From Escherichia phage vB_Eco_Tribble: 64,000 nt of DNA. Shown one piece after another: positions 18,944-62,092 of this stretch (its first letter is position 1; each line of letters starts with the position of its first letter). The position numbers and the translations under genes are program-made. The notes beneath the pieces were generated by a model. The model had not been told where the DNA came from. It saw only the letters and a list, made by a program, of their open reading frames with translations, and ran no database searches. Location: sequence record OX016465; one strand, given 5' to 3'.

Positions 18944-19138
18944 ATGCCTACAATCCTAGCAATTCTCCTAAAAAATCTAGGTAGTTTCTTCTGGAAACTC
19001 ATTTTATCTCTTCTAAGTGAATACATGATTGAGAAAGTGTTCTTTAAGCTTGCAAGATACCTTGCGGGTAAGACAGACACCCCTATTGATGATGAATTCG
19101 TAGATAACTTAGAAAAAGCTTTTAAGGGGGAGAAATAA
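18944..19138 (+). CDS. Small hydrophobic protein (possible holin-like)
   Basis: 64 aa with hydrophobic N-terminal segment; at the 3' end of the late operon. Confidence 0.25.
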   Translation: MPTILAILLKNLGSFFWKLILSLLSEYMIEKVFFKLARYLAGKTDTPIDDEFVDNLEKAFKGEK

Positions 19139-19510
19139 ATGAAGTGGATAGAGGAAGCTTTTAAAAATAATATTGGTGCAATTGTTGTTGGTATTTTTAG
19201 TGTTATTGGGATGTATACCACGATGCAAGTTTCAAGTGGTAAGCAAGAGGTGTCTGTCACAACAAAATTACAGCAGCTAGATAATTATAGCAAATCTAAT
19301 TACTCAGCTATTCGTGATTTACAGTCTGACATAAGACTTATTCAGTTAGGGATGGAGAACCAGAAAGTTCAGTTAGAGAATGTTAAGGGTGAGAATGCAA
19401 AACTTACCAAAACTCTTGATAAATTCTCTGACAGTGTGAATAATCTGGCTCAATCAGTATCAGCCCTCCAAGCTATTACTGAAAAGAACACAAAGAATAC
19501 TGAAAAATAA
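19139..19510 (+). CDS. Membrane-anchored coiled-coil protein
   Basis: N-terminal TM-like segment (IGAIVVGIFSVIGMY) followed by a coiled-coil-like region. Confidence 0.3.
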   Translation: MKWIEEAFKNNIGAIVVGIFSVIGMYTTMQVSSGKQEVSVTTKLQQLDNYSKSNYSAIRDLQSDIRLIQLGMENQKVQLENVKGENAKLTKTLDKFSDSVNNLAQSVSALQAITEKNTKNTEK

Positions 19511-45174: not shown

Positions 45175-45916
45175 TAACAAGCTCTATAGCTCATCTAAAA
45201 CGTGCCTAAACAGGGAAACTCTACAGATGTAGACAATCCTGTGCTAAATGATGTACGATGTAAGAAACTATACAACATAGGAGTCTTACATGCCAAACTA
45301 TCACGTCACTGAAGATGGAAAAGTCTTTAGGGAAAATGGTGTAGAGCTTACGCAGTGGAAATCCAACACTGGGTATATGAAAGTGAGGTTTTACGGTAAG
45401 AAGAATCGTGACATGTATGTCCACAGGTTAGTTGCTGAGAAATATGTACCTAACCCGAACAATCTTCCAATTGTAAAACATAAGGACGATAACAAACTAA
45501 ATAACCACGTATCTAACTTAGAATGGGGTACTCATTCTGAGAATGCTAAAGAAGGTTATGAGAATGGATGTTACAAGTTCCACAAGCGTTCATATGCCGT
45601 GAAAGCCACACACAAAGTGACAAAGGAAGTTATTGTTACTAAGTCAATACGAGAGTTATCCAATATACTTGGATACAATCGCAAGACCATCTCTTCAATA
45701 TTGAAGGGTGTAAAAGAGCATAATAACTTCGAATATGAGTTTGAATACATCTAAATGCCGAACGACTAACCGTGATGAATGTAGCGGTGTAGGGTCAAGC
45801 GACTCGAAATGGTACGCTACTTAGAAATAAGTAGAAGATATAGTCTGGACTTACTGGCGACAGTAAGCAGCTTGAATAAAGCGGGGTAAGCTTAGCGAAC
45901 TTACCTGAACAATAAG
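45175..45916 (+). mobile_element. Group I intron in nrdD carrying an HNH endonuclease ORF
   Basis: Exon 1 ends in U (…ATG GGT), intron ends in G (…AATAAG); P-like AACAGGGAAA (45209-45218), Q-like AATCCTGTG (45235-45243), R-like GTAAGAAACTATACA (45260-45274), S-like AAGATATAGTCT (45835-45846). Confidence 0.7.
45290..45754 (+). CDS. HNH homing endonuclease, intron-encoded
   Basis: HNH motif VHRLVAEKYVPNPNNLPIVKHKDDNKLNNHVSNLEWGTHSEN; AGGAG Shine-Dalgarno before ATG. Confidence 0.8.
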   Translation: MPNYHVTEDGKVFRENGVELTQWKSNTGYMKVRFYGKKNRDMYVHRLVAEKYVPNPNNLPIVKHKDDNKLNNHVSNLEWGTHSENAKEGYENGCYKFHKRSYAVKATHKVTKEVIVTKSIRELSNILGYNRKTISSILKGVKEHNNFEYEFEYI

Positions 45917-46864
45917 TGTAGAGCATTTTTATCATCATACCATAACGAATATGGTGAAGAGTTTTATGTAGGTCGTGCTAACATTGGTGCTGTATCTTTG
46001 AACTTACCAATGATTTACCAGTATTCTAAAGAGAATGGCTTAGATTTCTGGAAAGAGCTTGATAAGTACCTAGAAATGATTCGCAGCTTCCACAAGAAAC
46101 GTTACGAAATGATTGCTAATATGTCAGCAAGTTCTAACCCTCTTGCGTTCACACAAGGTGGTCTGTACAAAGGGAATAAGAAACCTACTGACAAGGTTGG
46201 CTGGGATATCGTGAAGTCCTTCACAGCTTCTTTTGGGGTTACTGCGCTTGATGAGCTATCTGTTCTTGCTGAAGGTAAACGACTTCATGAAGTTGGAAGC
46301 TGTAGTTTTGCATATGATGTTCTGGAATATATCAACATGAAGACTGAAGAGTTTAAAAATGAAGATGGCTTCTTATATGCAGTCTATGGCACTCCAGCAG
46401 AATCACTTTGTGGAACTCAGCTAAAACAGTTCAGAGATATGTTTGGCGTTATCAAAGGCGTTTCTGACAAGGAATACTTTACAAACAGTTTCCATATGAA
46501 TGTTGCAGCAGATATTACACCATTTGAGAAGCAGGACTTAGAAGAACCCTTCTTCCATATCTGTAGAGGCGGCAGAATCCAGTATGTAAGAGTGGCTAAC
46601 CCAGAAAACTTATCAGCACTTAAGAGTTGTATTACAAGAGGGATGTTGAAAGGTTTCTATCAGGGACTTAACTTTGACTTAGCAATCTGTGAACATTGTG
46701 GTAACAGACCAAAGGCTGATGCTGAAGAATGTGAGGTTTGTCATTCACACGATATCTCTGTGATTAACAGGGTGTGCGGATATTTGGGATGGACTAAGAT
46801 TAAAGGTGAATCCCGAATGAATGATGCAAAAATCGCTGAGATTCGCGACAGAATTTCTATGTAA
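45917..46864 (+). CDS. nrdD: Anaerobic ribonucleoside-triphosphate reductase, exon 2
   Basis: Frame open from 45917: CRAFLSSYHNEYGEEFYVGRANIGAVSLNLP aligns with E. coli CRSFLGVWENENGEQIHDGRNNLGVISLNLP; C-terminal zinc ribbon and glycyl-radical loop RVCGYLG. Confidence 0.75.
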   Translation, partial: CRAFLSSYHNEYGEEFYVGRANIGAVSLNLPMIYQYSKENGLDFWKELDKYLEMIRSFHKKRYEMIANMSASSNPLAFTQGGLYKGNKKPTDKVGWDIVKSFTASFGVTALDELSVLAEGKRLHEVGSCSFAYDVLEYINMKTEEFKNEDGFLYAVYGTPAESLCGTQLKQFRDMFGVIKGVSDKEYFTNSFHMNVAADITPFEKQDLEEPFFHICRGGRIQYVRVANPENLSALKSCITRGMLKGFYQGLNFDLAICEHCGNRPKADAEECEVCHSHDISVINRVCGYLGWTKIKGESRMNDAKIAEIRDRISM

Positions 46865-53972: not shown

Positions 53973-56339
53973 ATGCGCATGGTAAACGACCACGCAGAAG
54001 TGATTAAGAGTTCAACTTCTTTGGAGACATCTCAAGCACAGATTACAATGACACCTGAAATGTTCAGCCTTCTGAGTTCTGGTGTATACACATTCAAAGA
54101 AAGGGCAGTGATTCGTGAACTGTCATGTAATGCAGTAGATGCTCAGAAAGAAGCTGGAAAAGAGAACATCCCATTCCATGTGCATTTACCTACTCGATTT
54201 GAGCCTTACTTTGAAGTCCGTGACTTTGGAACTGGTTTAACCCATGACAAAGTAATGAGTTTGTACCTGAACTACGGGGCTTCTACGAAGAACGACTCTA
54301 ATGATTACATTGGTGCAATGGGTATCGGCTCAAAGTCACCGTTTGCAATTGCTCAGTCATTCACGGTGTCTAGCTATGTTGATGGTGTTGTTAATAAATA
54401 CTCTGTTTACCTTGAGAATGGCATCCCTCAAGTGACTAAGCTTACTACTAACCCAACAAATGAACCTAATGGCTTAGCTGTACGTGTGGCAGTTGCTGAC
54501 CACCGTATTTCAAAGTTCTTTGAAGAGGCTGGTCACGTATACTCATACTTTGCTGTAAAGCCAGAAAGTAATATTGTATATGATGACGTGTTAGCAGATA
54601 TGAACGTCATTGCTCGTGAAGAAGGTGTTTATGACGCTATGATTCATAAGCAAAGCTGGCGTTCTAGTGGTAACAGGACAGAGTTTAATGTGGTGATGGG
54701 TAATATTGCCTATCCAGTCAATATGGAAGCATTACTTGGTGATGATTTCTTCAAAGTCTTGCCAGAGTTTTTCCGTAGGAGCGTAGACCTTGTAAACATC
54801 TACATGCCTATTGGTTCAGTTGCTATTGCAGCTTCTCGTGAAGCATTGCAGATGAATGACACGACAAAAAATGTTATCATTGAGGCTACCAAAAAGATAA
54901 CTGAAGCAATTACAAAGGATGTTATCAAGAAAGTTAATAGCCAACCTACACTCATGGATGCTGCACAGGCTTACGCAGAGTTACGTTTGAACTCACGAGA
55001 AATGTTTAATGCTGTGTGTCCAAAGCTAGAGTGGGGAGGTGTTAAGCTTGATTCTCTGGAAGAAGAATTGCTAAACATTCGTCGTGGAATTATCTACGCA
55101 GAAGACGGCTCAGTCATTTATGAACGTGACGGTAAAGGTAATATTAAGGTTGATAGGAACGGGGACAATATCCCTAAAGTGGACTACCTATACAATCCAG
55201 TTGCTTATGTCAAGTTCAACTCTTTAGAGAGTAAGATTCGTGCAACAGCACTTTCCTACACTCAAGAGGCAAGTATGTTCAATATCTTTGGTGCAATGCG
55301 TAAAAGCCAAATTGAACAGTTTTTGTTCGTGATTAATGACCGTCGCAATAAAAACGGTACTGAGAAGACTGTAGGACGCAATCAGATTCTGCGTGGTGCA
55401 TGTCGAGACTATGCCAGCGAGTCAAGTCTGTTTCACAGATACAATGGTATTGTCTTTGTATTCCCTAATGAGAAAGAGCTAGATGATTTAATCAATCTGC
55501 ACAAACTTGATAAAAGCTTGTTAAAGATTGTGAAAATGTCTGATAAGGAACATCATTATCAGCGTAAAGAAGCTGTAAGAGGTGTTGTAAAACTTTGGAA
55601 AGCTGTTCCAGCAGAAGGTGTAGCTTCCTATAAAGAGGTTTCAGAGGACTTTGATACAATTGAAGAACCTCAGCTTTATATTAAGGCAGTCGGTGACACA
55701 GTTGATGGTGAATGTTTTTGCTCATCTCCAGAAGATGTAGCTAAGTCAGTTGCCAATGTCATTGGAAAGACAGTCTATGTTTTCCGAAAAGCAAATTGGA
55801 AAAAGATACCAGAAGACTGGATTGAAGTAGATGAGAAGCTCTTGAACGACAGCTTAACTGATGTTCACTGGATTAATCATAACAGGTATATGACACGTAT
55901 CTATATGAATGGTGTCCTCGACCTTACAAGCAGTTGGATTATTGCCAGAAACTTTACATTCAATAACAGGAAGATTTCTCGTGGCTATTGCTATTCACGA
56001 GACACAAACAAAACTATCTTCTTAGAAGGTAATGAAGATGCTGTTGAGGCAATGTTTGGTAAAATCCAATACGTTGCTGCACCGTTTGCATACACTTACA
56101 CTATTAGTAGATTGCAAACTTTGAAAGAATGCCTTGACAATGATACAAAGCTGTACAAGAAAATTAAGAAAGCTGGTGACCGCATGGTCATTAAGGTGAC
56201 AAACTACCTTTCAAAAAGAAAACAAGAAAACTTCTTGCTTTCTCATTTAGATTGGAATAAAGTGTCCCCCATCGAAGTGAGTAAGTTCTTAGGCTTTGAT
56301 GTAAAATGTGTTCCAGAAGGTACAACAGTTTACGATTAA
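53973..56339 (+). CDS. rIIA: rIIA-like protein (N-terminal GHKL ATPase domain)
   Basis: Bergerat-fold motifs: ELSCNAVDA, DFGTGLT, GAMGIGSKS; 788 aa; followed by an rIIB-like gene. Confidence 0.6.
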   Translation: MRMVNDHAEVIKSSTSLETSQAQITMTPEMFSLLSSGVYTFKERAVIRELSCNAVDAQKEAGKENIPFHVHLPTRFEPYFEVRDFGTGLTHDKVMSLYLNYGASTKNDSNDYIGAMGIGSKSPFAIAQSFTVSSYVDGVVNKYSVYLENGIPQVTKLTTNPTNEPNGLAVRVAVADHRISKFFEEAGHVYSYFAVKPESNIVYDDVLADMNVIAREEGVYDAMIHKQSWRSSGNRTEFNVVMGNIAYPVNMEALLGDDFFKVLPEFFRRSVDLVNIYMPIGSVAIAASREALQMNDTTKNVIIEATKKITEAITKDVIKKVNSQPTLMDAAQAYAELRLNSREMFNAVCPKLEWGGVKLDSLEEELLNIRRGIIYAEDGSVIYERDGKGNIKVDRNGDNIPKVDYLYNPVAYVKFNSLESKIRATALSYTQEASMFNIFGAMRKSQIEQFLFVINDRRNKNGTEKTVGRNQILRGACRDYASESSLFHRYNGIVFVFPNEKELDDLINLHKLDKSLLKIVKMSDKEHHYQRKEAVRGVVKLWKAVPAEGVASYKEVSEDFDTIEEPQLYIKAVGDTVDGECFCSSPEDVAKSVANVIGKTVYVFRKANWKKIPEDWIEVDEKLLNDSLTDVHWINHNRYMTRIYMNGVLDLTSSWIIARNFTFNNRKISRGYCYSRDTNKTIFLEGNEDAVEAMFGKIQYVAAPFAYTYTISRLQTLKECLDNDTKLYKKIKKAGDRMVIKVTNYLSKRKQENFLLSHLDWNKVSPIEVSKFLGFDVKCVPEGTTVYD

Positions 56340-56344
56340 AGTGT

Positions 56345-56374
56345 TTGACAAGGGGCTTTGAAGCCCCTTAGAAT
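56345..56374 (+). promoter_or_regulatory. Candidate promoter TTGACA-N18-TAGAAT with a GC hairpin in the spacer, upstream of the rIIB-like gene
   Basis: TTGACA 56345-56350; spacer AGGGGCTTTGAAGCCCC is a perfect hairpin; TAGAAT 56369-56374. May alternatively be a terminator for rIIA. Confidence 0.35.
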
Positions 56375-56418
56375 AACCTCACAAAATGATTTATTAACTA
56401 ACAAGAGAGAGTAATAAG

Positions 56419-57528
56419 ATGACTACTAAAACTAAAGCACAGATTGACGCAGAAATTTACAAACTGGTTAAAGAAGGTAAGCTGACTAAAACAGCTATTG
56501 CACAGAAATTTAATACTTCAACCCGTTCAGTTGGTCGTGCTGTAGAGCGTCATGAAGCAACCTTAAAAGGTAATAAGAAGGCGACTTCTACACCAGCTAC
56601 GAAGACTTTGAAACAAGTTGCTAAGACTTTTAAAAAGAAATCTGGCAAACAAGTTGAAAAGGTCGTTAAAGAGTCTGTACAGAAAGCTCCAGTAAATAAA
56701 CTGCATGAAGCTATGCAGAAAGATGACAAGATAGAGTACATGATTACTGGTGACTCTGTAATTATGACTTACGGTTCAGAATCTGAAATTGTTGAGTCTA
56801 CTCATCCGAACTATCAAGAGATTGTAGTTCATGTTGTGAAAGGTGAGTTTAAGAAAGCCTTTGAACTGATGAACATTCGTAAGTCTATCGAGAACTTCAC
56901 TCAGGGTGCTATCACAATCAAAGGTGACAAGCTGTTCTACGGTGCTGTTGAGATGCGTTCTACTCTGGTTGACCGTATTCTTCACATGATGAAGACTGGG
57001 GATAAAGGCTTTGAACGCCTTGTGATGTTCTTCGAAAAACTGATGGAAAACCCATCTAAAGACTCTGTAGAACAACTTTGGGGCTTCGTATCTCACCTTG
57101 ATGTTGAAATTGATGAAGAAGGCTACATCATTGGTTGGAAGAAAGTCTCTACTCGTGAAGGCAAGCTGGTTGATTCTCACACCTACAGAGTGCCTAATGA
57201 TTTGGGCAACGTTGTAGAAATGCCACGTTGGATGGTTGATAATAACCGTAACGTGACTTGCTCTCAAGGTCTTCACGTTGGTGCTTGGGATTATGTTCGT
57301 TGTTTCTCAGGTGATACAATTCTGAAGGTTCGTGTCCATCCACGAGATGTTGTATCTGTTCCAACTGATTACAACGATATGAAGATGCGCTCATCTCGTT
57401 ATGAAGTTGCAGCAATCGTTGATAATCAACGTAAAGTGTTGAAAGCATGGGATGGCAAGACTGAAGCTTTACATGTCATCGTTGGTACTGCTGGTGAACT
57501 CATCTCTCAGCGTAAACGTGAAATCTAA
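56419..57528 (+). CDS. rIIB: rIIB-like protein
   Basis: C-terminal region (…CSQGLHVGAWDYVRCFSGDTILKVRVHPRDVVSVPTDYNDMKMRSSRYEV…) resembles the T4 rIIB C-terminus as recalled. Confidence 0.65.
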   Translation: MTTKTKAQIDAEIYKLVKEGKLTKTAIAQKFNTSTRSVGRAVERHEATLKGNKKATSTPATKTLKQVAKTFKKKSGKQVEKVVKESVQKAPVNKLHEAMQKDDKIEYMITGDSVIMTYGSESEIVESTHPNYQEIVVHVVKGEFKKAFELMNIRKSIENFTQGAITIKGDKLFYGAVEMRSTLVDRILHMMKTGDKGFERLVMFFEKLMENPSKDSVEQLWGFVSHLDVEIDEEGYIIGWKKVSTREGKLVDSHTYRVPNDLGNVVEMPRWMVDNNRNVTCSQGLHVGAWDYVRCFSGDTILKVRVHPRDVVSVPTDYNDMKMRSSRYEVAAIVDNQRKVLKAWDGKTEALHVIVGTAGELISQRKREI

Positions 57529-57544
57529 TAAGTAATTTCTTAAA

Positions 57545-57570
57545 AGGCTGCTTCGGCGGCCTTTTTTATT
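57545..57570 (+). terminator. Intrinsic terminator after the rIIB-like gene
   Basis: GGCTGC-TTCG-GCGGCC hairpin (one G-U pair) followed by TTTTTTATTT. Confidence 0.55.
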
Positions 57571-57597
57571 TGTATTTTGTGCAGAGTGCTGTATAAT
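57569..57597 (+). promoter_or_regulatory. Candidate promoter with perfect TATAAT upstream of the transglycosylase gene
   Basis: TATAAT at 57592-57597 with weak -35 TTTGTA 17 nt upstream; contains TTGTGCAGAG, related to the iteron core at 61.7-61.9 kb. Confidence 0.35.
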
Positions 57598-57628
57598 TGT
57601 TGTCACGATAAACTAAACAGGAGAACCA

Positions 57629-58177
57629 ATGAAGAAATTGATTCTAGGTTTGTGCTTAATGTTTACAGCACACTTATCTTATGCAGTTGACTGCCCAGAG
57701 CTATCAATTAGCCAAAAAGTAAACATGTTAAAAGCTTACCAGTATGGTGAGAACAACATGGGTAAAGGTTGGGGTATCACTCTAGCTGCTATAGCCTTAC
57801 AAGAGTCAGAGTTAGGTCTGAAGGTAGAGAATAAAAAGACACATGATTATGGTATTTTCCAGAATCACTTGAAGACTGTTGTAAAGCGTAACAAAATTAG
57901 TCCTAATGTGGCTAAAAAGAAACTCTTAAAAGACTTTAACTATGCTGCGAAGGAAACGCACAAAGAACTTGAGTTTTGGACAAAGGTGCATGGTCAGCCA
58001 AAGTCAAAGAAGACTTTACAAAAAGTTTTAGCATCATATAATGCTGGGTATTCGTACAGAATCCCTAAAGCTAAGAAATATTCTCAAGATGTCTATAACA
58101 ACATGAAAGTTATTGCTCAATGTGAATTTGCAACAAACATTTCTAAGGTAAACCATGAAAAAATTAAAAAAGTCTGA
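57629..58177 (+). CDS. Secreted lytic transglycosylase-like protein (SLT domain; candidate endolysin)
   Basis: Signal peptide MKKLILGLCLMFTAHLSYA; SLT-type motifs AIALQESELG (Glu-Ser), GIFQ, SYNAGYS. Confidence 0.5.
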   Translation: MKKLILGLCLMFTAHLSYAVDCPELSISQKVNMLKAYQYGENNMGKGWGITLAAIALQESELGLKVENKKTHDYGIFQNHLKTVVKRNKISPNVAKKKLLKDFNYAAKETHKELEFWTKVHGQPKSKKTLQKVLASYNAGYSYRIPKAKKYSQDVYNNMKVIAQCEFATNISKVNHEKIKKV

Positions 58178-58730
58178 TGAAGTACTGTGTCATGCTTACG
58201 ACTTACATCCTCATGAGTTAGGTCTTGATTCCTGTGTATGTACTCCAGAACAGTGTAGGGATTTTGAAGACACCGCAAGAGAAGTCGTATGTTCACTCGA
58301 AGAGTTCCACACATCAGAGCCAATTGTGAATGTTGTAGATAAAGAGACTGGACAAACTATAGGTGTAAGTCGTGATAGCTTAGTCATAGTCAATAAAGAC
58401 CTTGTAGAAAAAGGTAACCTTATCTTAGCAGACATTGATGGTGTTCTTACAAATTTTAATCACGAAGATTGCTCAACGGAATTGATTGATGGGTCATTTT
58501 CACAGTACACTAATTTGCTTGACTCTGTAAGAGCAAAACCAACGTATGTTTTCAACATCATTGACGCAATTGCTAATCATGCCGCCATTGGACTCTTGAC
58601 AGCGAGAGGTGAATCTCAGAGAATACCTACTGAGATGTTTTTAAGGCATTACATAGAGCATGATTACATGCTTTTTATGCGTGGTTTTGGGACTAACTCT
58701 ATAAGTGCAGAAAGTTTGAAAGTGAGATGA
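58155..58730 (+). CDS. Hypothetical protein with possible HAD-like DxDG motif
   Basis: LILADIDGVLTNF resembles HAD motif I; start uncertain. Confidence 0.25.
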   Translation: MKKLKKSDEVLCHAYDLHPHELGLDSCVCTPEQCRDFEDTAREVVCSLEEFHTSEPIVNVVDKETGQTIGVSRDSLVIVNKDLVEKGNLILADIDGVLTNFNHEDCSTELIDGSFSQYTNLLDSVRAKPTYVFNIIDAIANHAAIGLLTARGESQRIPTEMFLRHYIEHDYMLFMRGFGTNSISAESLKVR

Positions 58731-58859
58731 TTCAGTCTTGCATTCTGCCTTACTTTGATATAGTATGTTTTATAGAAGATACAGAGAAGAATGTGCAGAA
58801 GGTGAACAGAATCCTTCCACACATTAAAACTATGTTAGTAAAACATTGAGAGAAAACTT

Positions 58860-59324
58860 ATGAACAATATCATTACGGTAGCACTGGACGTTACAGCAAA
58901 CAAATCTGAAGTAGTTCGTAACATTATCAAAAGCAACTTTGAGGGTAAAATCTTCCGTGCTGTCAATGTAAAAGCAGACGGTAACATCCGAGAGTATCGT
59001 GCTCTTCTGAATGTTAAGAAACACGTCAAAGGTGCTGGTTCAACGACTGCACACAAAGAAAACCTGATGACTATCTATGATATGGGTATGGCTTCAGAGT
59101 TAGGTGCTGAAGGTATCGTTAAAGAAGGTGCTCCGTATCGCTCTTTCAATCTGGAAACTGCTCTTATGCTTTCCTTCACAAGTGGTTCTAAAACAACTAC
59201 TTACCTCTTTACTGATGCTGCAACGGTATCTGCTATCAAGGATAGCACTGTCAAAGCTGGGGTAGCTGCTGCTGCAAAAGCTTCTTCGATGGCTGCAAAT
59301 GTCCTTGCTAAAGTCCTCGGTTAA
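58860..59324 (+). CDS. Hypothetical protein
   Basis: 154 aa; Ala-rich C-terminus; followed by a terminator. Confidence 0.3.
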   Translation: MNNIITVALDVTANKSEVVRNIIKSNFEGKIFRAVNVKADGNIREYRALLNVKKHVKGAGSTTAHKENLMTIYDMGMASELGAEGIVKEGAPYRSFNLETALMLSFTSGSKTTTYLFTDAATVSAIKDSTVKAGVAAAAKASSMAANVLAKVLG

Positions 59325-59335
59325 GGTTAAGATAC

Positions 59336-59358
59336 AGGCTCCTTCGGGAGCCTTTTTC
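59336..59358 (+). terminator. Intrinsic terminator
   Basis: AGGCTCC-TTCG-GGAGCCT followed by TTTTCATTT. Confidence 0.6.
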
Positions 59359-59376
59359 ATTTCAGGAGATTGTTAA

Positions 59377-59724
59377 ATGACATTTAAAGAGTTCTGTCAA
59401 GCTACTTTCATAATTGTTTTCTTAGTTGGGGCAGGTGTCTGGGGAGGATACTCTTACAGAGACTATCAAGTTGCTGAAACTGAGCTAAACAATCAAAAGC
59501 TCATAAGTGTTGCTAAAGATGCTTATCAGGAAGGATTAGTAACATTGAGCACCAATTACAAAAATGATTTGAAGGATGTGCTTGCTAAGAATAAGCATAC
59601 AAAAGAGGTACTAACATATGAAAAAACTAAGCCAGAGTTTTATAATGTTTGTGTTACTGATAACTATGTCAGGGTGTTCAACGAACAAAGTGAGCAGTAC
59701 ATTCAAAAACTCCCAAGTAAGTGA
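59377..59724 (+). CDS. Putative i-spanin (Rz-like)
   Basis: N-terminal TM helix (FIIVFLVGAGVWGGY) followed by a coiled-coil-like periplasmic domain; overlapping lipoprotein ORF in another frame. Confidence 0.45.
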   Translation: MTFKEFCQATFIIVFLVGAGVWGGYSYRDYQVAETELNNQKLISVAKDAYQEGLVTLSTNYKNDLKDVLAKNKHTKEVLTYEKTKPEFYNVCVTDNYVRVFNEQSEQYIQKLPSK

Positions 59725-59887
59725 GAGTGATAAGTACACTCAAGAAGAATCACGGTATATCATCAAAGGCAACACAGGCAGTGATGTAGCAGCAGCCCTT
59801 GAGTTCTATCGTGACGGCTTTTACCAGTGCACAATCAAAGCTAACAACCTTATTGACATGATTTTATTAGGGAATAAGCAGCAATGA
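59618..59887 (+). CDS. Putative o-spanin (Rz1-like outer-membrane lipoprotein)
   Basis: Lipoprotein signal MKKLSQSFIMFVLLITMSGC with lipobox Cys; starts inside the Rz-like gene in a different frame. Confidence 0.45.
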   Translation: MKKLSQSFIMFVLLITMSGCSTNKVSSTFKNSQVSESDKYTQEESRYIIKGNTGSDVAAALEFYRDGFYQCTIKANNLIDMILLGNKQQ

Positions 59888-60153
59888 CAGAGAATGAAGA
59901 TACTTTCTATGTAGAAGGTTACTTACTGTTACCACGACCAAAAGAAACTTATATGCGAATTGACTTCATACCAACCATTATGGATAATGTGATGTGTCAT
60001 ATCTTTATGCAAGGTGTCACAGCACAGCTTAAGCATGTCGGTAAAGACTGCAAAATAAAGGTTGACACTCATCCAGAAATCAAAGAGAATCACTACACAT
60101 GGTTCTTACCAGACTCTAAAGAAATCTTAGCAGTTCTCAAAACGAGGAAGTAA
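59884..60153 (+). CDS. Hypothetical protein
   Basis: 89 aa ORF translationally coupled to the upstream gene. Confidence 0.3.
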   Translation: MTENEDTFYVEGYLLLPRPKETYMRIDFIPTIMDNVMCHIFMQGVTAQLKHVGKDCKIKVDTHPEIKENHYTWFLPDSKEILAVLKTRK

Positions 60154-60155
60154 CT

Positions 60156-60482
60156 ATGCAGATTAATGGAAGAGACTTTGTAGCCGTTTACTACGAGAAA
60201 GGTAAAGAGGTTGGTGTAGCACAAGTAACTTATGGCAATGGTAAGTGGCTGTATGGAACAATCGCAGTAGTAGGAACAAGAAGTGATACAAAAACTTTTA
60301 AAGATTGTGTTGACCTTCTTGAAGAATCCATCCAGAATCATTGGTGTCTGATATGGATGACTGATAACGAAGTGATAGAACGTTTCAAAAAGATTAATAT
60401 CAACATTGACAGTATTGAGCATGTTGATTTATATGAGCTAACTGAGAAGGTAAACTATGAAAGTAATACTAGCCAGAGATAA
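60156..60482 (+). CDS. Hypothetical protein
   Basis: 108 aa ORF. Confidence 0.3.
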   Translation: MQINGRDFVAVYYEKGKEVGVAQVTYGNGKWLYGTIAVVGTRSDTKTFKDCVDLLEESIQNHWCLIWMTDNEVIERFKKININIDSIEHVDLYELTEKVNYESNTSQR

Positions 60483-60684
60483 AAAGACACGAAAACTTAT
60501 CAGGTCAGCAGTGTTCATTGGACGAAATGAGGTCATCCCATTTACAGCAAATGATGTGATAGCTTACAGGAAAAACTTAGTATTCACTGACTGCTTACGT
60601 GGCTTCATCTCTGAACCATTGGAAGACTTTAAAAGTCGTTGTGGTAAAGGTATTATCATTCAAGAGGCAATTATTCATGGCTGA
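60457..60684 (+). CDS. Hypothetical protein
   Basis: 75 aa ORF. Confidence 0.25.
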   Translation: MKVILARDKKTRKLIRSAVFIGRNEVIPFTANDVIAYRKNLVFTDCLRGFISEPLEDFKSRCGKGIIIQEAIIHG

Positions 60685-60877
60685 CTTCTGCAAAGATTGT
60701 TCTATCGAAATGTTCGGACGTGATACAGGTGACTTAAAAGGTCTCATCACTGAAGATGACTTTAAGGCTGGCTATGCAATGCCAGTAATCTGTGAAGGTT
60801 GTGGGTGCATCTGGGTAGACCACGAAGGACAGCGTGTAAAACCTTCAGAAGATAAAGAATCTTGGGAGAGATGTTAA
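60677..60877 (+). CDS. Small Cys-rich protein
   Basis: Start at ATG 60677; CKDC…CEGCGC cysteine cluster. Confidence 0.3.
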   Translation: MADFCKDCSIEMFGRDTGDLKGLITEDDFKAGYAMPVICEGCGCIWVDHEGQRVKPSEDKESWERC

Positions 60878-61663
60878 ATGGGTATTGTAAAAATCATCAA
60901 AGGTGATATCTTTGAAGCATTTGATAAAGGTAAATTTGATATCATTGGTCATGGTTGCAACTGTATGAATTTCATGGGTGCAGGTATTGCAGCAACTATT
61001 TCTAAGCGTTATCCAAAAGTGTATGATACTGACACAGAAGTTTACCTGTTTGCAGGTGGCATTCGTCACAAACCCTGTGAAAATTTACTAGGTAATTTAT
61101 CTGTAGCACGTTTAAAACAAGGTCGTATAGCTAACCTTTACACCCAACTTCATACTGGTAAAGATGCACGATACAGTGCTTTAGAGTCATCTTTGAAACA
61201 GCTTAACAGATACTGTGAAGTCAATCAGTTGAAGAAAGTTGGTTTTCCTATGATTGGTGCAGGTATTGGTGGACTTGACCCTCAAGCTGTCACAGTTATC
61301 ATCAATCAGGTGATGAAGAGTGTGGATGTTTATCTGTATGTCTATGAAGGAGAGATGTACCACAAGTTACGCTCAGGTTGGAAGAACTACTGTGAACCAG
61401 AATACTTTGCAGGTGTAGTTGTGTTCACGGATAATGCAGTTACCCTCTTCAGACGAAGAAAAGGTAAGATACATCAAAGTAACCCTCCGGTTGAAAAGAT
61501 GTCTCTAAGTAACGCTCTAGTTACCCACCTGTCGAAGAGCAATCATAGAATTGCCGTGACATTTGGTAGTGATGCAGACACCTACATCTATGCAAGAACT
61601 GATGAGGATATCGAGACAGTTTTCTCTTCGCCAGAAGTTACCTTCTTAGACGCAAAGAACTAA
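60878..61663 (+). CDS. Macrodomain protein (TARG1/DarG-like ADP-ribosyl hydrolase fold) with C-terminal extension
   Basis: GDIFEAFDKGKFDIIGHGCNCMNFMGAGIAATISKRYP resembles the TARG1-type motif …AHCISEDCRMGAGIA… as recalled; second Gly-rich loop FPMIGAGIGGLDP. Confidence 0.55.
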   Translation: MGIVKIIKGDIFEAFDKGKFDIIGHGCNCMNFMGAGIAATISKRYPKVYDTDTEVYLFAGGIRHKPCENLLGNLSVARLKQGRIANLYTQLHTGKDARYSALESSLKQLNRYCEVNQLKKVGFPMIGAGIGGLDPQAVTVIINQVMKSVDVYLYVYEGEMYHKLRSGWKNYCEPEYFAGVVVFTDNAVTLFRRRKGKIHQSNPPVEKMSLSNALVTHLSKSNHRIAVTFGSDADTYIYARTDEDIETVFSSPEVTFLDAKN

Positions 61664-61710
61664 GAAACTTCGTAGGATATTCACAATAGACTAAGCCTTT
61701 CTTATCTGGT

Positions 61711-61915
61711 AAATTTTTCAGGTAAGGAGGGCTTTTTCATTTCAGAATTGTGCAGGTATATTTCTATAGAGAAATCTGTAGAGTGAATTTTGAACTCCAA
61801 AGAGAAAATTCATTTTCAAACTGTGCAGGTAATCTCCAAAGAGCTTTTTCATTTTCAAAACGTGCAGAGAAAAATCAGGTCGGGCAAGAAAAATCATTTG
61901 AGAATTGTGCAGGTA
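61711..61915. repeat. Array of 4-5 direct repeats (iteron-like), core TTTTCATTTTCA(A/G)AANTGTGCAGGTA
   Basis: Copies at 61733-61758, 61805-61832, 61845-61870, 61889-61915 and a partial at 61711-61727, in a 510-bp noncoding region. Confidence 0.6.
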
Positions 61916-62092
61916 GGTGGGTGTAGGTGGGGCTGTCGCCATTTCTCACAAGGCTACCACATCTGAAAATAAAAGTCAAAAGAAAAATTTGTAGCGGATT
62001 GAAAAATAATTCTTGATTGTAGTTCTGTTTTGTGGTAATCGCGCGCACCCGTTTCATTACATTTTTGCCAAAAATATTTTTAAAAATTTTCA

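What the first reader, a model, noticed from the sequence alone, without database searches (positions are those of the whole stretch)
57629..59887. Probable lysis region: signal-peptide lytic transglycosylase plus overlapping Rz/Rz1-like spanin pair, with no obvious holin
57629..58177 encodes an SLT-like enzyme with a cleavable-looking signal peptide, which suggests Sec-dependent export rather than holin-dependent release. 59377..59724 (TM plus coiled coil) and 59618..59887 (lipoprotein, different frame) overlap as Rz/Rz1 pairs do. No holin is evident between them; the two genes in between (a possible HAD-like protein and an Ala-rich 154-aa protein) are unexplained. Small membrane proteins at 18944..19510 could be holin or antiholin encoded far away.
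Basis: partly seen in the sequence, partly recalled or inferred. Interest (0 to 1): 0.45.

Follow-up and report, generated by a model that had tools for sequence, protein, structure and literature searches.

The report
Felix O1-type spanins plus Vs.1-like transglycosylase
This stretch of a Felix O1-like phage holds a real, already catalogued spanin pair and a secreted wall-cutting enzyme related to phage T4 Vs.1, but it is not a self-contained lysis cassette, because in this phage group the main lysozyme and the likely holin are encoded elsewhere in the genome.

Summary
The window is a Felixounavirus (Felix O1-like myovirus, about 95% nucleotide identity to many records).

- **Spanins.** 59377-59724 and 59618-59887 are the overlapped i-spanin/o-spanin pair already listed for Felix O1 by Kongari et al. 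2018. The i-spanin sequence is identical and the overlap is the same 107 nt.
- **Transglycosylase.** 57629-58177 is a true GH23/SLT-fold protein with a cleavable-looking signal peptide. It is the homologue of T4 Vs.1, a conserved gene of unknown function found in more than 2,000 phage records and made before the late phase in T4. It follows rIIA-rIIB behind a sigma-70-like promoter.
- **Other lysis genes.** Felixounaviruses carry a separate T4-lysozyme-type endolysin, in the ~24 kb of the genome outside this window. They also carry a putative holin at the end of the tail-fibre operon (window 19139-19510). Published genome papers state that their lysis genes are scattered, as in T4.
- **Genes in between.** One is a pseT-like HAD phosphatase homologue, split here by a 1-nt deletion. 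The other is a small WYL/Sm-like protein. Neither looks lytic.

Already known; low interest.

The parts
53973..56339 (+). rIIA (context: start of the T4-like block of non-structural genes)
   Evidence: Colinear with annotated rIIA of garuso, Felix O1 and AYO145A.
56419..57528 (+). rIIB (context)
   Evidence: phrog_609 'RIIB lysis inhibitor', E 1.9e-88. 347 of 369 residues identical to Felix O1 rIIB.
57542..57565 (+). Intrinsic-terminator-like hairpin after rIIB
   Evidence: 10-bp stem with 5 GC pairs and a T-run. A terminator is annotated at the same place in AYO145A.
57570..57597 (+). Sigma-70-like promoter candidate (TTGTAT, 16 nt, TATAAT) upstream of the SLT gene
   Evidence: Read from the sequence. 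A promoter is annotated at the equivalent site in AYO145A ('3 bp mismatch'). Not experimentally mapped.
57629..58177 (+). Exported GH23/SLT-fold lytic transglycosylase-like protein, homologue of T4 Vs.1 (Felix O1 ORF3)
57629..57685 (+). Signal peptide (residues 1-19, predicted cleavage SYA|VD)
   Evidence: Rule-based reading. Equivalent N-terminal signals with small -3/-1 residues occur in homologues from Tequatrovirus, Kuttervirus and Kolesnikvirus. The Cys22/Cys165 pair is present or absent together in 18 full-length homologues, which suggests a periplasmic disulfide.
58155..58730 (+). pseT-like HAD phosphatase homologue, N-terminal 191-aa piece; overlaps the SLT gene by 23 nt
   Evidence: phrog_3970 'polynucleotide kinase', E 9e-104 over positions 1-191 of 231. 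DIDGV motif present; I see no GxxxxGK(S/T) P-loop on reading the sequence printed. A distant orthologue has a faint Pfam HAD_PNKP hit. A 1-nt deletion relative to garuso, AYO145A and Felix O1 truncates it.
58727..58849 (+). C-terminal 40-aa piece of the same gene, now a separate ORF (AGATGA stop/start overlap)
   Evidence: Matches the last 40 residues of the 231-aa Felix O1 protein with one substitution (N to D). It carries the FIEDTEKN acidic motif.
58860..59324 (+). 154-aa protein, WYL/Sm-like beta-barrel plus a C-terminal Ala-rich helix; function unknown, no export signal
59336..59353 (+). Terminator-like hairpin immediately before the i-spanin RBS
   Evidence: 7-bp stem with 5 GC pairs and a T-run. 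Annotated as a terminator in AYO145A.
59377..59724 (+). i-spanin (inner-membrane spanin subunit; Felix O1 ORF6/p014)
   Evidence: Identical to Felix O1 p014 as listed by Kongari 2018. phrog_1152, E 1e-41. N-terminal TMD and a single periplasmic Cys92. C-terminal motif conserved in five phage groups.
59618..59887 (+). o-spanin (outer-membrane lipoprotein subunit; Felix O1 ORF7/p015), +1 frame, 107-nt overlap
   Evidence: 88 of 89 residues identical to Felix O1 ORF7. Kongari 2018 lists an 89-aa o-spanin with a 107-nt overlap. Lipobox MSG|C, Ser at +2, second Cys71. Found in 342 phage records. Lipobox Cys and C-terminal Cys conserved.
18944..19138 (+). 64-aa hydrophobic/amphipathic protein (Felix O1 gp78 by position) preceding the holin candidate
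   Evidence: phrog_402. The homologue in Krischvirus phiS (44% identity, E 1e-16) lies between the tail-fibre genes and a true T holin.
19139..19510 (+). 123-aa single-TMD protein, the putative holin of Felix O1-type phages (Felix O1 gp79 by position)
   Evidence: TMD at about residues 11-30. Annotated 'holin' or 'putative holin' in garuso, Moogle, bumzen, warpig and Sf13. Listed as a holin candidate by Whichard 2010. Last gene of the tail-fibre operon before the strand switch. Not homologous to T4 T. Untested.
60878..61663 (+). Macro-domain protein, T4 tk.4-like (context: a further member of the T4-like non-structural gene set)
   Evidence: Pfam Macro 32.4 bits. Felix O1 note '17.5 KD protein in tk-vs intergenic region'. 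tk.4 is matched to the A1pp domain in Nolan 2006.

Best explanation
The region is part of a T4-like block of non-structural genes in a Felix O1-type myovirus: rIIA, rIIB, a vs.1 homologue, a pseT-like phosphatase, spanins and a tk.4-like Macro protein. It is not a lysis cassette.

Lysis in this phage group uses four scattered components:
1. A late, single-TMD holin candidate at the end of the tail-fibre operon (window 19139-19510).
2. A cytoplasmic T4-lysozyme-family endolysin, encoded outside this window.
3. The i-spanin (59377-59724), anchored in the inner membrane by its N-terminal TMD.
4. The o-spanin (59618-59887), lipidated at Cys20 and sorted to the outer membrane because residue +2 is Ser.

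The two spanin subunits join through their conserved C-terminal regions across the periplasm. Each has one periplasmic Cys available for homodimer disulfides. They fuse or disrupt the outer membrane once the endolysin has removed the peptidoglycan.

The SLT-like protein (57629-58177) is the Vs.1-family enzyme. It is probably transcribed from a sigma-70-like promoter, exported by Sec, cleaved after residue 19 and stabilised by a Cys22-Cys165 disulfide. It then acts in the periplasm as a small, basic GH23 glycan-strand cleaver during the latent period. That would be accessory wall remodelling with restrained activity, comparable to the specialised transglycosylases of secretion systems. It is not the endolysin that causes lysis.

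Shown here: gene identities, homologies, fold, motifs and synteny.

Inferred: export and cleavage, timing, enzymatic product, holin identity, and the presence of the endolysin in this particular phage.
For: - Identity of the phage: 212 phage records cover at least 80% of 55000-62000 at 90-99% identity, and they are Felixounavirus.
- Spanins: i-spanin identical and o-spanin 88/89 identical to Felix O1. Both are already catalogued as an overlapped pair of the 'JH2' family with a 107-nt overlap. phrog_1152 E 1e-41. Both frames, the lipobox and the periplasmic Cys residues are conserved in Kolesnikvirus, Hafnia phage Zyzzx, a phiEco32-like phage and Klebsiella phage phi_270.
- In phi_270 the homologous pair closes a canonical cassette: holin, endolysin, membrane protein, spanins.
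- Endolysin elsewhere: the garuso 'lysin' gives PF00959 140 bits and phrog_7. It has no match in the window (best E 4.8). The window equals garuso 69707-85798 plus 1-45413, so it lacks the segment that holds the lysin at 54835-55299.
- Literature: Felix O1 lacks a holin-lysin cassette and its lysin is gp35. 'Scattered around the genome' for Moogle and Meda. Lysozyme, holin and spanins are listed as separate genes.
- SLT = Vs.1: tblastn finds 2127 phage records, including Tequatrovirus, where the hit is vs.1 between regB and vs. Pairwise E 2e-16. The Felix O1 record note already says so. Homologues pass the Pfam SLT threshold. Fold and motifs.
- Expression in T4: vs.1 RNA is early and its protein middle; pseT.3 and pseT.2 (the T4 spanins) are also early/middle, and they lie next to pseT.
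- Not a virion protein: gp3 is absent from the Felix O1 virion proteome list.
- Transcription signals: a terminator and a promoter-like site flank the SLT operon.
- Holin slot.
Against: - None of these Felix O1-type genes has been tested functionally in anything I could find.
- The endolysin is inferred for this phage from colinear relatives, because that part of the genome is outside the window.
- Temporal classes are borrowed from T4. No Felix O1 transcriptome was found.
- A terminator-like hairpin sits directly before the i-spanin RBS with no room for a promoter, so how the spanins are transcribed is unknown.
- An exported muralytic enzyme could still contribute to lysis timing. The window's own SLT protein scores just below the Pfam threshold.
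- GH23 contains hydrolytic lysozymes as well as transglycosylases, so the chemistry is not settled.
Confidence: 0.8

Rival explanations
1. First reader's model. The SLT protein is the phage's endolysin. It is delivered by Sec without a holin and, together with the adjacent spanins, forms a holin-independent lysis module.
For: It has a true muralytic fold with an intact catalytic Glu. It has a conserved export signal. It lies 1.2 kb upstream of the spanins in Felixounavirus. Some records label it 'putative lysin'. No holin is proven for the group.
Against: A canonical PF00959 endolysin is present in relatives, and the Felix O1-type cd00737 lysin is the one the literature treats and studies as the lysin. 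The SLT gene sits in the rII block of non-structural genes behind a sigma-70-like promoter. Its T4 homologue Vs.1 has early RNA and middle protein, yet T4 still needs lysozyme E and holin T (own knowledge). Linkage to the spanins is loose: one, two or five annotated genes separate the conserved SLT/pseT-like pair from the i-spanin within the subfamily, and the genes are about 73 kb apart in T4. An unregulated exported endolysin made early would lyse the cell prematurely.
Confidence: 0.06
2. The SLT/Vs.1 protein is an auxiliary lysis factor. It pre-weakens or remodels the sacculus from the periplasmic side during the latent period. This would make holin-triggered lysis faster or more complete, or would help spanin complexes span the wall.
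For: Periplasmic location is inferred. In T4 it is expressed before the late phase, in parallel with the spanins. It is conserved in more than 2,000 genomes of large virulent myoviruses that share scattered lysis genes. The closest solved sequence relative is EtgA, a transglycosylase that opens the wall for an envelope-spanning machine. Nolan 2006 suggested 'some role in cell lysis'.
Against: There is no phenotype on record. vs.1 is among the conserved T4 ORFs not identified as essential. Lambda-type spanins work without such an enzyme (own knowledge). There is no conserved tight linkage to any lysis gene.
Confidence: 0.25
3. The SLT protein is a virion-borne wall-piercing enzyme used at infection, not after it.
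Against: It has a cleavable Sec signal and a likely periplasmic disulfide. It is a small single-domain protein. It lies among non-structural genes. It is absent from the Felix O1 structural proteome list.
Confidence: 0.02
4. The overlapping 89-aa ORF is a chance ORF and only the 115-aa protein is real.
For: Several GenBank records annotate it from a later start codon, or leave it unlabelled as a spanin or unannotated.
Against: The ORF, its lipobox Cys and its C-terminal Cys motif persist at 29-47% identity in distant phages. It has its own RBS. It is catalogued as an o-spanin.
Confidence: 0.01

Closest known systems
Felix O1 ORF6/ORF7 (Felix01p014/p015), the 'JH2' overlapped two-component spanin family of Kongari et al. 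2018
   Same: i-spanin 115/115 identical, o-spanin 88/89 identical, the same 107-nt overlap, the same RBS context and the same genomic position.
   Different: Nothing material. This is the same gene pair in another isolate.
Phage T4 Vs.1 (conserved ORF between regB and vs; marginal SLT match noted by Nolan et al. 2006)
   Same: Same length class (181-182 aa), N-terminal signal peptide, the E-S / G-x-x-Q / (S/A)-Y-N-x-G motifs, and a location among non-structural genes; 32% identity, E 2e-16.
   Different: The Felix O1-type protein has the Cys22/Cys165 pair that T4-type Vs.1 lacks. Its neighbours differ: rIIB and a pseT-like gene instead of regB and vs. Function is unknown in both.
Phage T4 PseT.3/PseT.2 spanins next to pseT
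   Same: The spanin genes lie apart from holin and endolysin, beside a pseT-type gene, in a block that T4 transcribes early.
   Different: T4 has the separated architecture, in the order pseT.3, pseT.2, pseT.1, pseT. Here the genes overlap and follow the pseT-like gene. I did not test for sequence homology. T4 PseT.2 has two periplasmic Cys and PseT.3 none; here each subunit has one.
Lambda Rz/Rz1
   Same: An inner-membrane type II protein plus an outer-membrane lipoprotein encoded in a +1 frame sharing DNA, with periplasmic Cys residues.
   Different: Overlapped rather than embedded. The mature o-spanin is 70 aa with no proline and some predicted structure, whereas lambda Rz1 is described as unstructured. 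The i-spanin has no predicted coiled coil. It is not in a lysis cassette.
Specialised lytic transglycosylases of secretion systems (EtgA; also IagB, IpgF, VirB1 and P19 from own knowledge)
   Different: Phage-encoded, with no associated envelope machine identified. Similarity is at superfamily level only.
Signal-peptide and SAR endolysins (fOg44 Lys44, P1 Lyz, phage 21 R; own knowledge)
   Same: A muralytic enzyme that reaches the wall through Sec.
   Different: Those are the phage's only endolysin and are late-expressed, typically with a holin or pinholin. Here a separate cytoplasmic endolysin exists. The gene lies among non-structural genes and probably has a sigma-70-like promoter. The N-terminus looks like a cleavable signal rather than a releasable anchor.

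Membership tests
Two-component spanin (i-spanin/o-spanin) | i-spanin: a single N-terminal transmembrane domain with a periplasmic C-terminal domain | tested here: met
   KD19 maximum 1.75 at residues 6-24; the remainder is hydrophilic. Orientation was not tested.
Two-component spanin (i-spanin/o-spanin) | o-spanin: signal peptide ending in a lipobox Cys, and no Lol-avoidance residue at +2 | tested here: met
   MKKLSQSFIMFVLLITMSG|CST: lipobox MSGC with Ser at +2. The Cys is conserved in five phage groups.
Two-component spanin (i-spanin/o-spanin) | The two genes are adjacent, with the o-spanin embedded, overlapped or immediately downstream | tested here: met
   107-nt overlap in the +1 frame. 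Overlaps of 116-164 nt in homologues.
Two-component spanin (i-spanin/o-spanin) | At least one periplasmic Cys for intermolecular disulfides | tested here: met
   i-spanin Cys92 and o-spanin Cys71, both conserved. The rule is described.
Two-component spanin (i-spanin/o-spanin) | Homology to an accepted spanin family | tested here: met
   phrog_1152 E 1e-41; the o-spanin hits phrog_456 only weakly (3e-4). The sequence is identical to the Felix01 entry of Kongari 2018.
Two-component spanin (i-spanin/o-spanin) | Required for outer-membrane disruption; complements lambda Rz/Rz1 amber mutants | not testable with these tools
   I found no experiment for this family. The only context evidence is that the homologous pair ends a holin-endolysin cassette in phage phi_270.
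GH23 / SLT-domain lytic transglycosylase | Passes the Pfam PF01464 gathering score | tested here: not met
   19.2 bits against a cut-off of 21.3 for the window protein. Its homologues pass: RB6 Vs.1 25.1, Tian 23.2, Marshall 21.6.
GH23 / SLT-domain lytic transglycosylase | Catalytic Glu in an E-S motif, plus the G-x-x-Q and (A/S)-Y-N-x-G motifs | tested here: met
   E59, Q78, Y137, N138 and G140 are invariant in 19 sequences; S60 in 18 of 19.
GH23 / SLT-domain lytic transglycosylase | Goose-lysozyme/SLT fold | tested here: met
GH23 / SLT-domain lytic transglycosylase | Produces 1,6-anhydroMurNAc ends (transglycosylase) rather than hydrolysing (lysozyme) | not testable with these tools
   Needs muropeptide analysis. 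GH23 contains both chemistries.
T4 Vs.1 family (phrog_600) | Sequence homology over the full length | tested here: met
   phrog_600 E 1.5e-57 over residues 1-170. 32% identity and E 2e-16 to RB6 Vs.1. 2127 phage records.
T4 Vs.1 family (phrog_600) | N-terminal export signal | tested here: met
   Present in all full-length homologues inspected. Assessed by rule, not with SignalP.
T4 Vs.1 family (phrog_600) | Expressed before the late phase, among non-structural genes | tested here: inconclusive
   Position after rIIB with a sigma-70-like promoter. T4 vs.1 has early RNA and middle protein. No expression data for Felix O1-type phages.
Endolysin of a holin-endolysin (or SAR/signal-peptide endolysin) lysis system | Is the phage's lysis-effecting muralytic enzyme, normally the only soluble one | tested here: not met
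   Relatives encode a separate PF00959 endolysin, which is the one recognised as the lysin in the literature.
Endolysin of a holin-endolysin (or SAR/signal-peptide endolysin) lysis system | Encoded with a holin or pinholin, or in a late lysis cassette | tested here: not met
   The neighbours are rIIB, a HAD phosphatase homologue and a WYL-like protein, with no TMD protein among them. The same holds in T4, Kuttervirus and Kolesnikvirus.
T4 PseT (Pnkp) polynucleotide kinase/phosphatase, for 58155-58849 | N-terminal P-loop kinase domain | tested here: not met
   I see no GxxxxGK(S/T) motif on reading the 231-aa Felix O1 orthologue or the window pieces (sequences printed). No Pfam or PDB sequence hit.
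T4 PseT (Pnkp) polynucleotide kinase/phosphatase, for 58155-58849 | C-terminal HAD (DxDxT) phosphatase domain | tested here: inconclusive
   DIDGV motif and a later ED motif are present. Weak PHROG matches to polynucleotide kinase families, E about 1e-3. Faint HAD_PNKP in a distant orthologue. The gene is split in this window.

The most novel reading that the evidence does not exclude
The Vs.1-family exported transglycosylase, conserved in more than 2,000 genomes of T4-like, Vi1-like and Felix O1-like myoviruses and still without a function, may be a dedicated periplasmic wall-conditioning factor made before lysis. It would be delivered by Sec and would work alongside the spanins, which T4 also makes before the late phase. 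It would nick the sacculus so that lysis, lysis timing, or resistance to lysis inhibition or superinfection depends on it under natural conditions. That would amount to a fifth, holin-independent component of myovirus lysis.
Probability: 0.1. Interest if true: 0.55.

Novelty: already known. Interest (0 to 1): 0.15.

Why it matters
It matters little for discovery. The spanin pair, the scattered lysis genes and the Vs.1 resemblance are all on record for Felix O1 and its relatives.

The practical value is in annotation:
- Many GenBank records call this SLT-like gene 'RegB endoribonuclease' or 'lysin'.
- Many start the o-spanin too late or shift the spanin labels by one gene.
- Many call a phosphatase-only protein a 'polynucleotide kinase'.

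The one open biological question is what an exported GH23 enzyme does for large virulent myoviruses. The family is very widespread, is made before the late phase in T4, and is untested. A simple knock-out in T4 or Felix O1 would answer it.

Tried and rejected
- A single-sequence phmmer search of the PDB with the SLT protein gave only a spurious BvgS hit. NCBIfam gave nothing meaningful for any of the seven proteins.
- The HAD-like protein has no Pfam or PDB sequence match, even at full length.
- A scan of bacterial genomes for cellular relatives of the SLT family could not be run, because the alignment was too divergent for the tool. The one 'Campylobacter coli' homologue turned out to lie on a chimallin-encoding contig, which is probably a jumbo phage.
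- I found no Felix O1 transcriptome and no paper on Vs.1 function. The T4 genome review was not held.
- I tested whether the 123-aa holin candidate is a diverged T4 T holin. There is no similarity and no Pfam holin hit.
- I considered a SAR (signal-anchor-release) reading of the SLT N-terminus. I rejected it as less likely because small -3/-1 residues after a short h-region are conserved across the family. It cannot be excluded without an experiment.
- I considered whether the frameshift in the pseT-like gene is only a sequencing error. This cannot be decided from the window, but a Sanger-confirmed split of the same gene in phage Meda makes natural decay plausible.


Full report
**What the window is.** A megablast of 55000-62000 against the phage collection found 276 records. 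Of these, 212 cover at least 80% of the query at 90-99% identity, and almost all are Felixounavirus (Felix O1-like myoviruses of Escherichia, Salmonella, Shigella and Citrobacter). Against phage garuso, the window corresponds to genome positions 69707-85798 followed by 1-45413. About 24 kb of a typical 86-kb genome is therefore outside it. The region of the finding lies directly after rIIA (53973-56339) and rIIB (56419-57528).

The 182-aa product of 57629-58177 begins MKKLILGLCLMFTAHLSYA|VDCPE. It has a basic n-region, a 13-residue hydrophobic core and small residues at -3 and -1, and an AGGAG lies 7 nt before the ATG.

Its SLT character is weak by sequence alone: Pfam SLT scores 19.2 bits against a 21.3-bit cut-off, and single-sequence PDB and NCBIfam searches give nothing. 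Further evidence makes it robust:
- In an alignment of homologues down to 30% identity, E59, G63, Q78, Y137, N138, G140 and Y151 are invariant and S60 nearly so. These are the E-S, G-x-x-Q and (A/S)-Y-N-x-G motifs of family-1 transglycosylases.
- The profile finds EtgA (E 7e-4) and goose lysozyme in the PDB.

Cys22 and Cys165 of the precursor are either both present (13 sequences) or both absent (5) among 18 full-length homologues, never one alone. This pattern suggests a disulfide and hence an oxidising, periplasmic location. The protein is also very basic (32 K+R against 14 D+E).

**The spanin pair.**
- 59377-59724 encodes 115 aa with one N-terminal TMD and matches phrog_1152 'Rz-like spanin' at E 1e-41.
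- 59618-59887 lies in the +1 frame and overlaps it by 107 nt. It has its own GAGG 8 nt upstream and begins MKKLSQSFIMFVLLITMSG|CST. That is a lipobox with Ser at +2, so by established Lol sorting rules it should go to the outer membrane.
- Each subunit has one further periplasmic Cys (C92 and C71).
- The supplementary tables of Kongari et al. 2018 list exactly this i-spanin sequence as Felix01 p014. They also list an 89-aa o-spanin, the overlapped architecture and a 107-nt overlap, and place both in the 'JH2' family with wV8, Moogle, Mushroom, EC6 and, for the i-spanin, phiEco32-type phages.
- Against the Felix O1 record, the i-spanin is 115/115 identical and the o-spanin 88/89.
- Both reading frames survive deep divergence. 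Kolesnikvirus (Erwinia phage Tian), Hafnia phage Zyzzx, the phiEco32-like phage Bas89 and Klebsiella phage phi_270 all keep an overlapped lipoprotein ORF. It retains the lipobox Cys and a C-terminal (F/Y)-x-x-C motif. The i-spanin retains an EK-T-x-P/T-x-F-x-N-x-C motif.
- In phi_270 the homologous pair ends a canonical cassette of holin (phrog_24402), endolysin (phrog_315) and a membrane protein. This is the best contextual evidence for function.
Kongari's tables give 66% helix and no coiled-coil segment for this i-spanin.

**What the SLT-like gene is.** tblastn against phages finds it in 2127 records. Beyond the Ounavirinae these include Tequatrovirus and other Straboviridae, Kuttervirus and other Ackermannviridae, and large Aeromonas, Vibrio and Acinetobacter phages.
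- In RB6 the hit is the gene labelled vs.1, between regB and vs. Pairwise identity to the window protein is 32% with E 2e-16, and it too has an N-terminal signal.
- The Felix O1 record itself annotates ORF3 as 'hypothetical 20.7 KD protein in vs-regB intergenic region'.
- Homologues from T4-like, Kuttervirus and Kolesnikvirus phages pass the Pfam SLT threshold, and all carry signal peptides.
- Nolan et al. 2006 describe vs.1 as a conserved T4-type ORF of unknown function with a marginal SLT match, not among the genes identified as essential.
- In a time-resolved T4 omics data set, vs.1 is classed as early RNA and middle protein.
- I found no functional study.
- Many records mislabel the gene as RegB endoribonuclease, evidently by slippage from the neighbouring T4 gene.

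**Why this is not a lysis cassette.**
1. Felixounaviruses have a conventional endolysin. The garuso 'lysin' (154 aa) scores 140 bits on Pfam Phage_lysozyme and matches phrog_7. It has no counterpart in the window (best tblastn E 4.8), because the window ends before that part of the genome.
2. The literature agrees. Whichard et al. 2010 identify this protein (gp35) as the lysin, note that holin-lysin cassettes are absent 'as with coliphage T4', and list gp79, 116, 118, 119 and 131 as holin candidates. The Moogle and Meda announcements say the lysis genes are scattered around the genome, and Meda's authors could not name a holin. Another study lists lysozyme, holin and the two spanins as separate, distant genes.
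3. The SLT gene's surroundings are not lytic. A terminator-like hairpin follows rIIB (57542-57565). Then come TTGTAT, 16 nt, TATAAT (57570-57597) and the SLT gene. The SLT gene overlaps the next gene by 23 nt. AYO145A carries terminator and promoter annotations at the same sites.
4. Linkage to the spanins is loose. The conserved SLT/pseT-like pair is followed by one annotated gene before the i-spanin in Felixounavirus, two in Hafnia phage Zyzzx and five in Kolesnikvirus. In T4 the genes are about 73 kb apart, and a distant Ounavirinae-like contig keeps rIIA, rIIB, one gene, SLT and a HAD gene.
5. T4 shows the same logic. Its spanin genes pseT.3 and pseT.2 lie beside pseT, away from t and e, and are early/middle. 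From established T4 genetics (own knowledge), e and t mutants do not lyse although vs.1 is intact. A Vs.1-type enzyme is therefore not sufficient for lysis.
6. A virion role for the SLT protein is unlikely. It has an export signal, and gp3 is not among the Felix O1 structural proteins found by mass spectrometry.

**The genes in between.**
- *58155-58730* matches phrog_3970 ('polynucleotide kinase') over positions 1-191 of 231. Relatives encode 231 aa. The window has a 1-nt deletion (GTGAGGATG becomes GTGAGATG), which creates AGA-TGA overlapping an ATG. The last 40 residues, including the FIEDTEKN acidic motif, become a separate ORF, 58727-58849.
- This protein has a DIDGV HAD motif. On reading the sequence I see no P-loop, and it has no Pfam or PDB sequence match. 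A distant orthologue has a faint HAD_PNKP hit. It resembles only the phosphatase half of T4 PseT. In phage Meda the same gene is split by a Sanger-confirmed stop codon, so decay of this gene may be natural.
- Nothing points to a role in lysis for either gene.

**The holin question.**
- The window's 19139-19510 (123 aa, one N-terminal TMD followed by a long charged helical region) is the last gene of the tail-fibre operon before the strand switch.
- It is annotated 'holin' or 'putative holin' in several relatives. By position it is Whichard's candidate gp79.
- The preceding 64-aa protein (18944-19138) has a homologue (44% identity, E 1e-16) in the T4-like Krischvirus phiS. There it lies between the tail-fibre genes and a true T holin (PF11031, 203.8 bits).
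- The 123-aa protein occupies that same slot but is not homologous to T. This is positional support only, and the holin remains unproven.

**Most likely mechanism.**
1. Late in infection the holin candidate permeabilises the inner membrane.
2. The cytoplasmic T4-lysozyme-type endolysin then reaches and degrades the wall.
3. The pre-assembled i-spanin/o-spanin complexes, freed from the peptidoglycan mesh, disrupt the outer membrane.
4. The Vs.1-like enzyme is made earlier, exported by Sec, and acts in the periplasm as an accessory glycan-strand cleaver with restrained activity.

Steps 1-3 follow the established lambda/T4 lysis model. The assignment of genes to steps rests on homology, motifs and synteny as cited. 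Export, timing, chemistry and the purpose of the Vs.1-like enzyme are inferred.

**Novelty and score.** The spanins, the scattered arrangement and the Vs.1 similarity are already recorded. The only open item is the function of the widespread Vs.1 family, which this window does not illuminate further. Interest 0.15.

Noticed in passing
window 58700-58850: The pseT-like HAD gene is split by a 1-nt deletion relative to Felix O1, garuso and AYO145A. This gives a 191-aa ORF and a 40-aa ORF joined by an AGATGA stop/start overlap. Phage Meda has the same gene split by a Sanger-confirmed stop codon, so the gene may be decaying in several lineages. Alternatively this is a sequencing error.
   Followed up: partly
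window 18944-19138 and L016 1998-2237: The 64-aa protein before the putative holin has homologues in about 400 phage records. In the T4-like Krischvirus phiS the homologue sits directly between the tail-fibre genes and the true T holin. A conserved small partner gene upstream of non-homologous holins could be a lysis regulator.
   Followed up: partly
window 57629-58177 and hits H25, H26, H29, H40, H49, H50: Many GenBank records label the Vs.1-like SLT gene 'RegB endoribonuclease', 'endoribonuclease' or 'lysin'. The RegB label appears to have slipped over from the neighbouring T4 gene.
   Followed up: yes
L001 7666-7887, L002 5692-6155, L003 5644-5841: Relatives annotate the o-spanin from later start codons (73 or 65 aa), which removes the signal peptide. 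One record shifts the labels by one gene, calling the lipoprotein 'i-spanin' and the next gene 'o-spanin'. The 89-aa start at window 59618 is the one with an RBS and a complete signal.
   Followed up: yes
window 58860-59324: The 154-aa protein models as a WYL/Sm-like beta-barrel with a long Ala-rich C-terminal helix. It is homologous to a protein with a weak Pfam WYL_2 hit in a distant relative. It may bind a ligand or nucleic acid; its function is unknown.
   Followed up: partly
window 60878-61663: A Macro-domain protein (annotated 'phosphatase') corresponds to T4 tk.4. With rIIA/B, the vs.1 homologue, the pseT-like gene and the spanins, this block collects homologues or analogues of genes that are dispersed in T4.
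   Followed up: partly
window 45178-45997: Relative to garuso, the window has an insertion of about 740 bp inside the anaerobic ribonucleotide reductase gene. It carries a 154-aa ORF (45290-45754) that looks like a homing endonuclease. A similar interruption of this gene by an HNH endonuclease is reported for phage Meda.
   Followed up: no
window 59336-59376: A strong terminator-like hairpin ends only 23 nt before the i-spanin start codon, leaving no room for a promoter. The spanins must therefore be expressed by read-through or from a promoter inside the upstream genes.
   Followed up: no
L013 (GCA_053226485.1 contig, 214,766 bp): The only homologue of the SLT protein carrying a bacterial name ('Campylobacter coli') lies on a contig that also encodes a chimallin (phage-nucleus shell) protein. 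The contig is probably a jumbo phage genome inside a bacterial assembly.
   Followed up: no
phage records GU169904.1 and MG065668.1: Records named Staphylococcus phage SA1 and Campylobacter phage A126 contain near-identical Felixounavirus genes (96-98% protein identity). This suggests contamination or chimeric assemblies in those entries.
   Followed up: no
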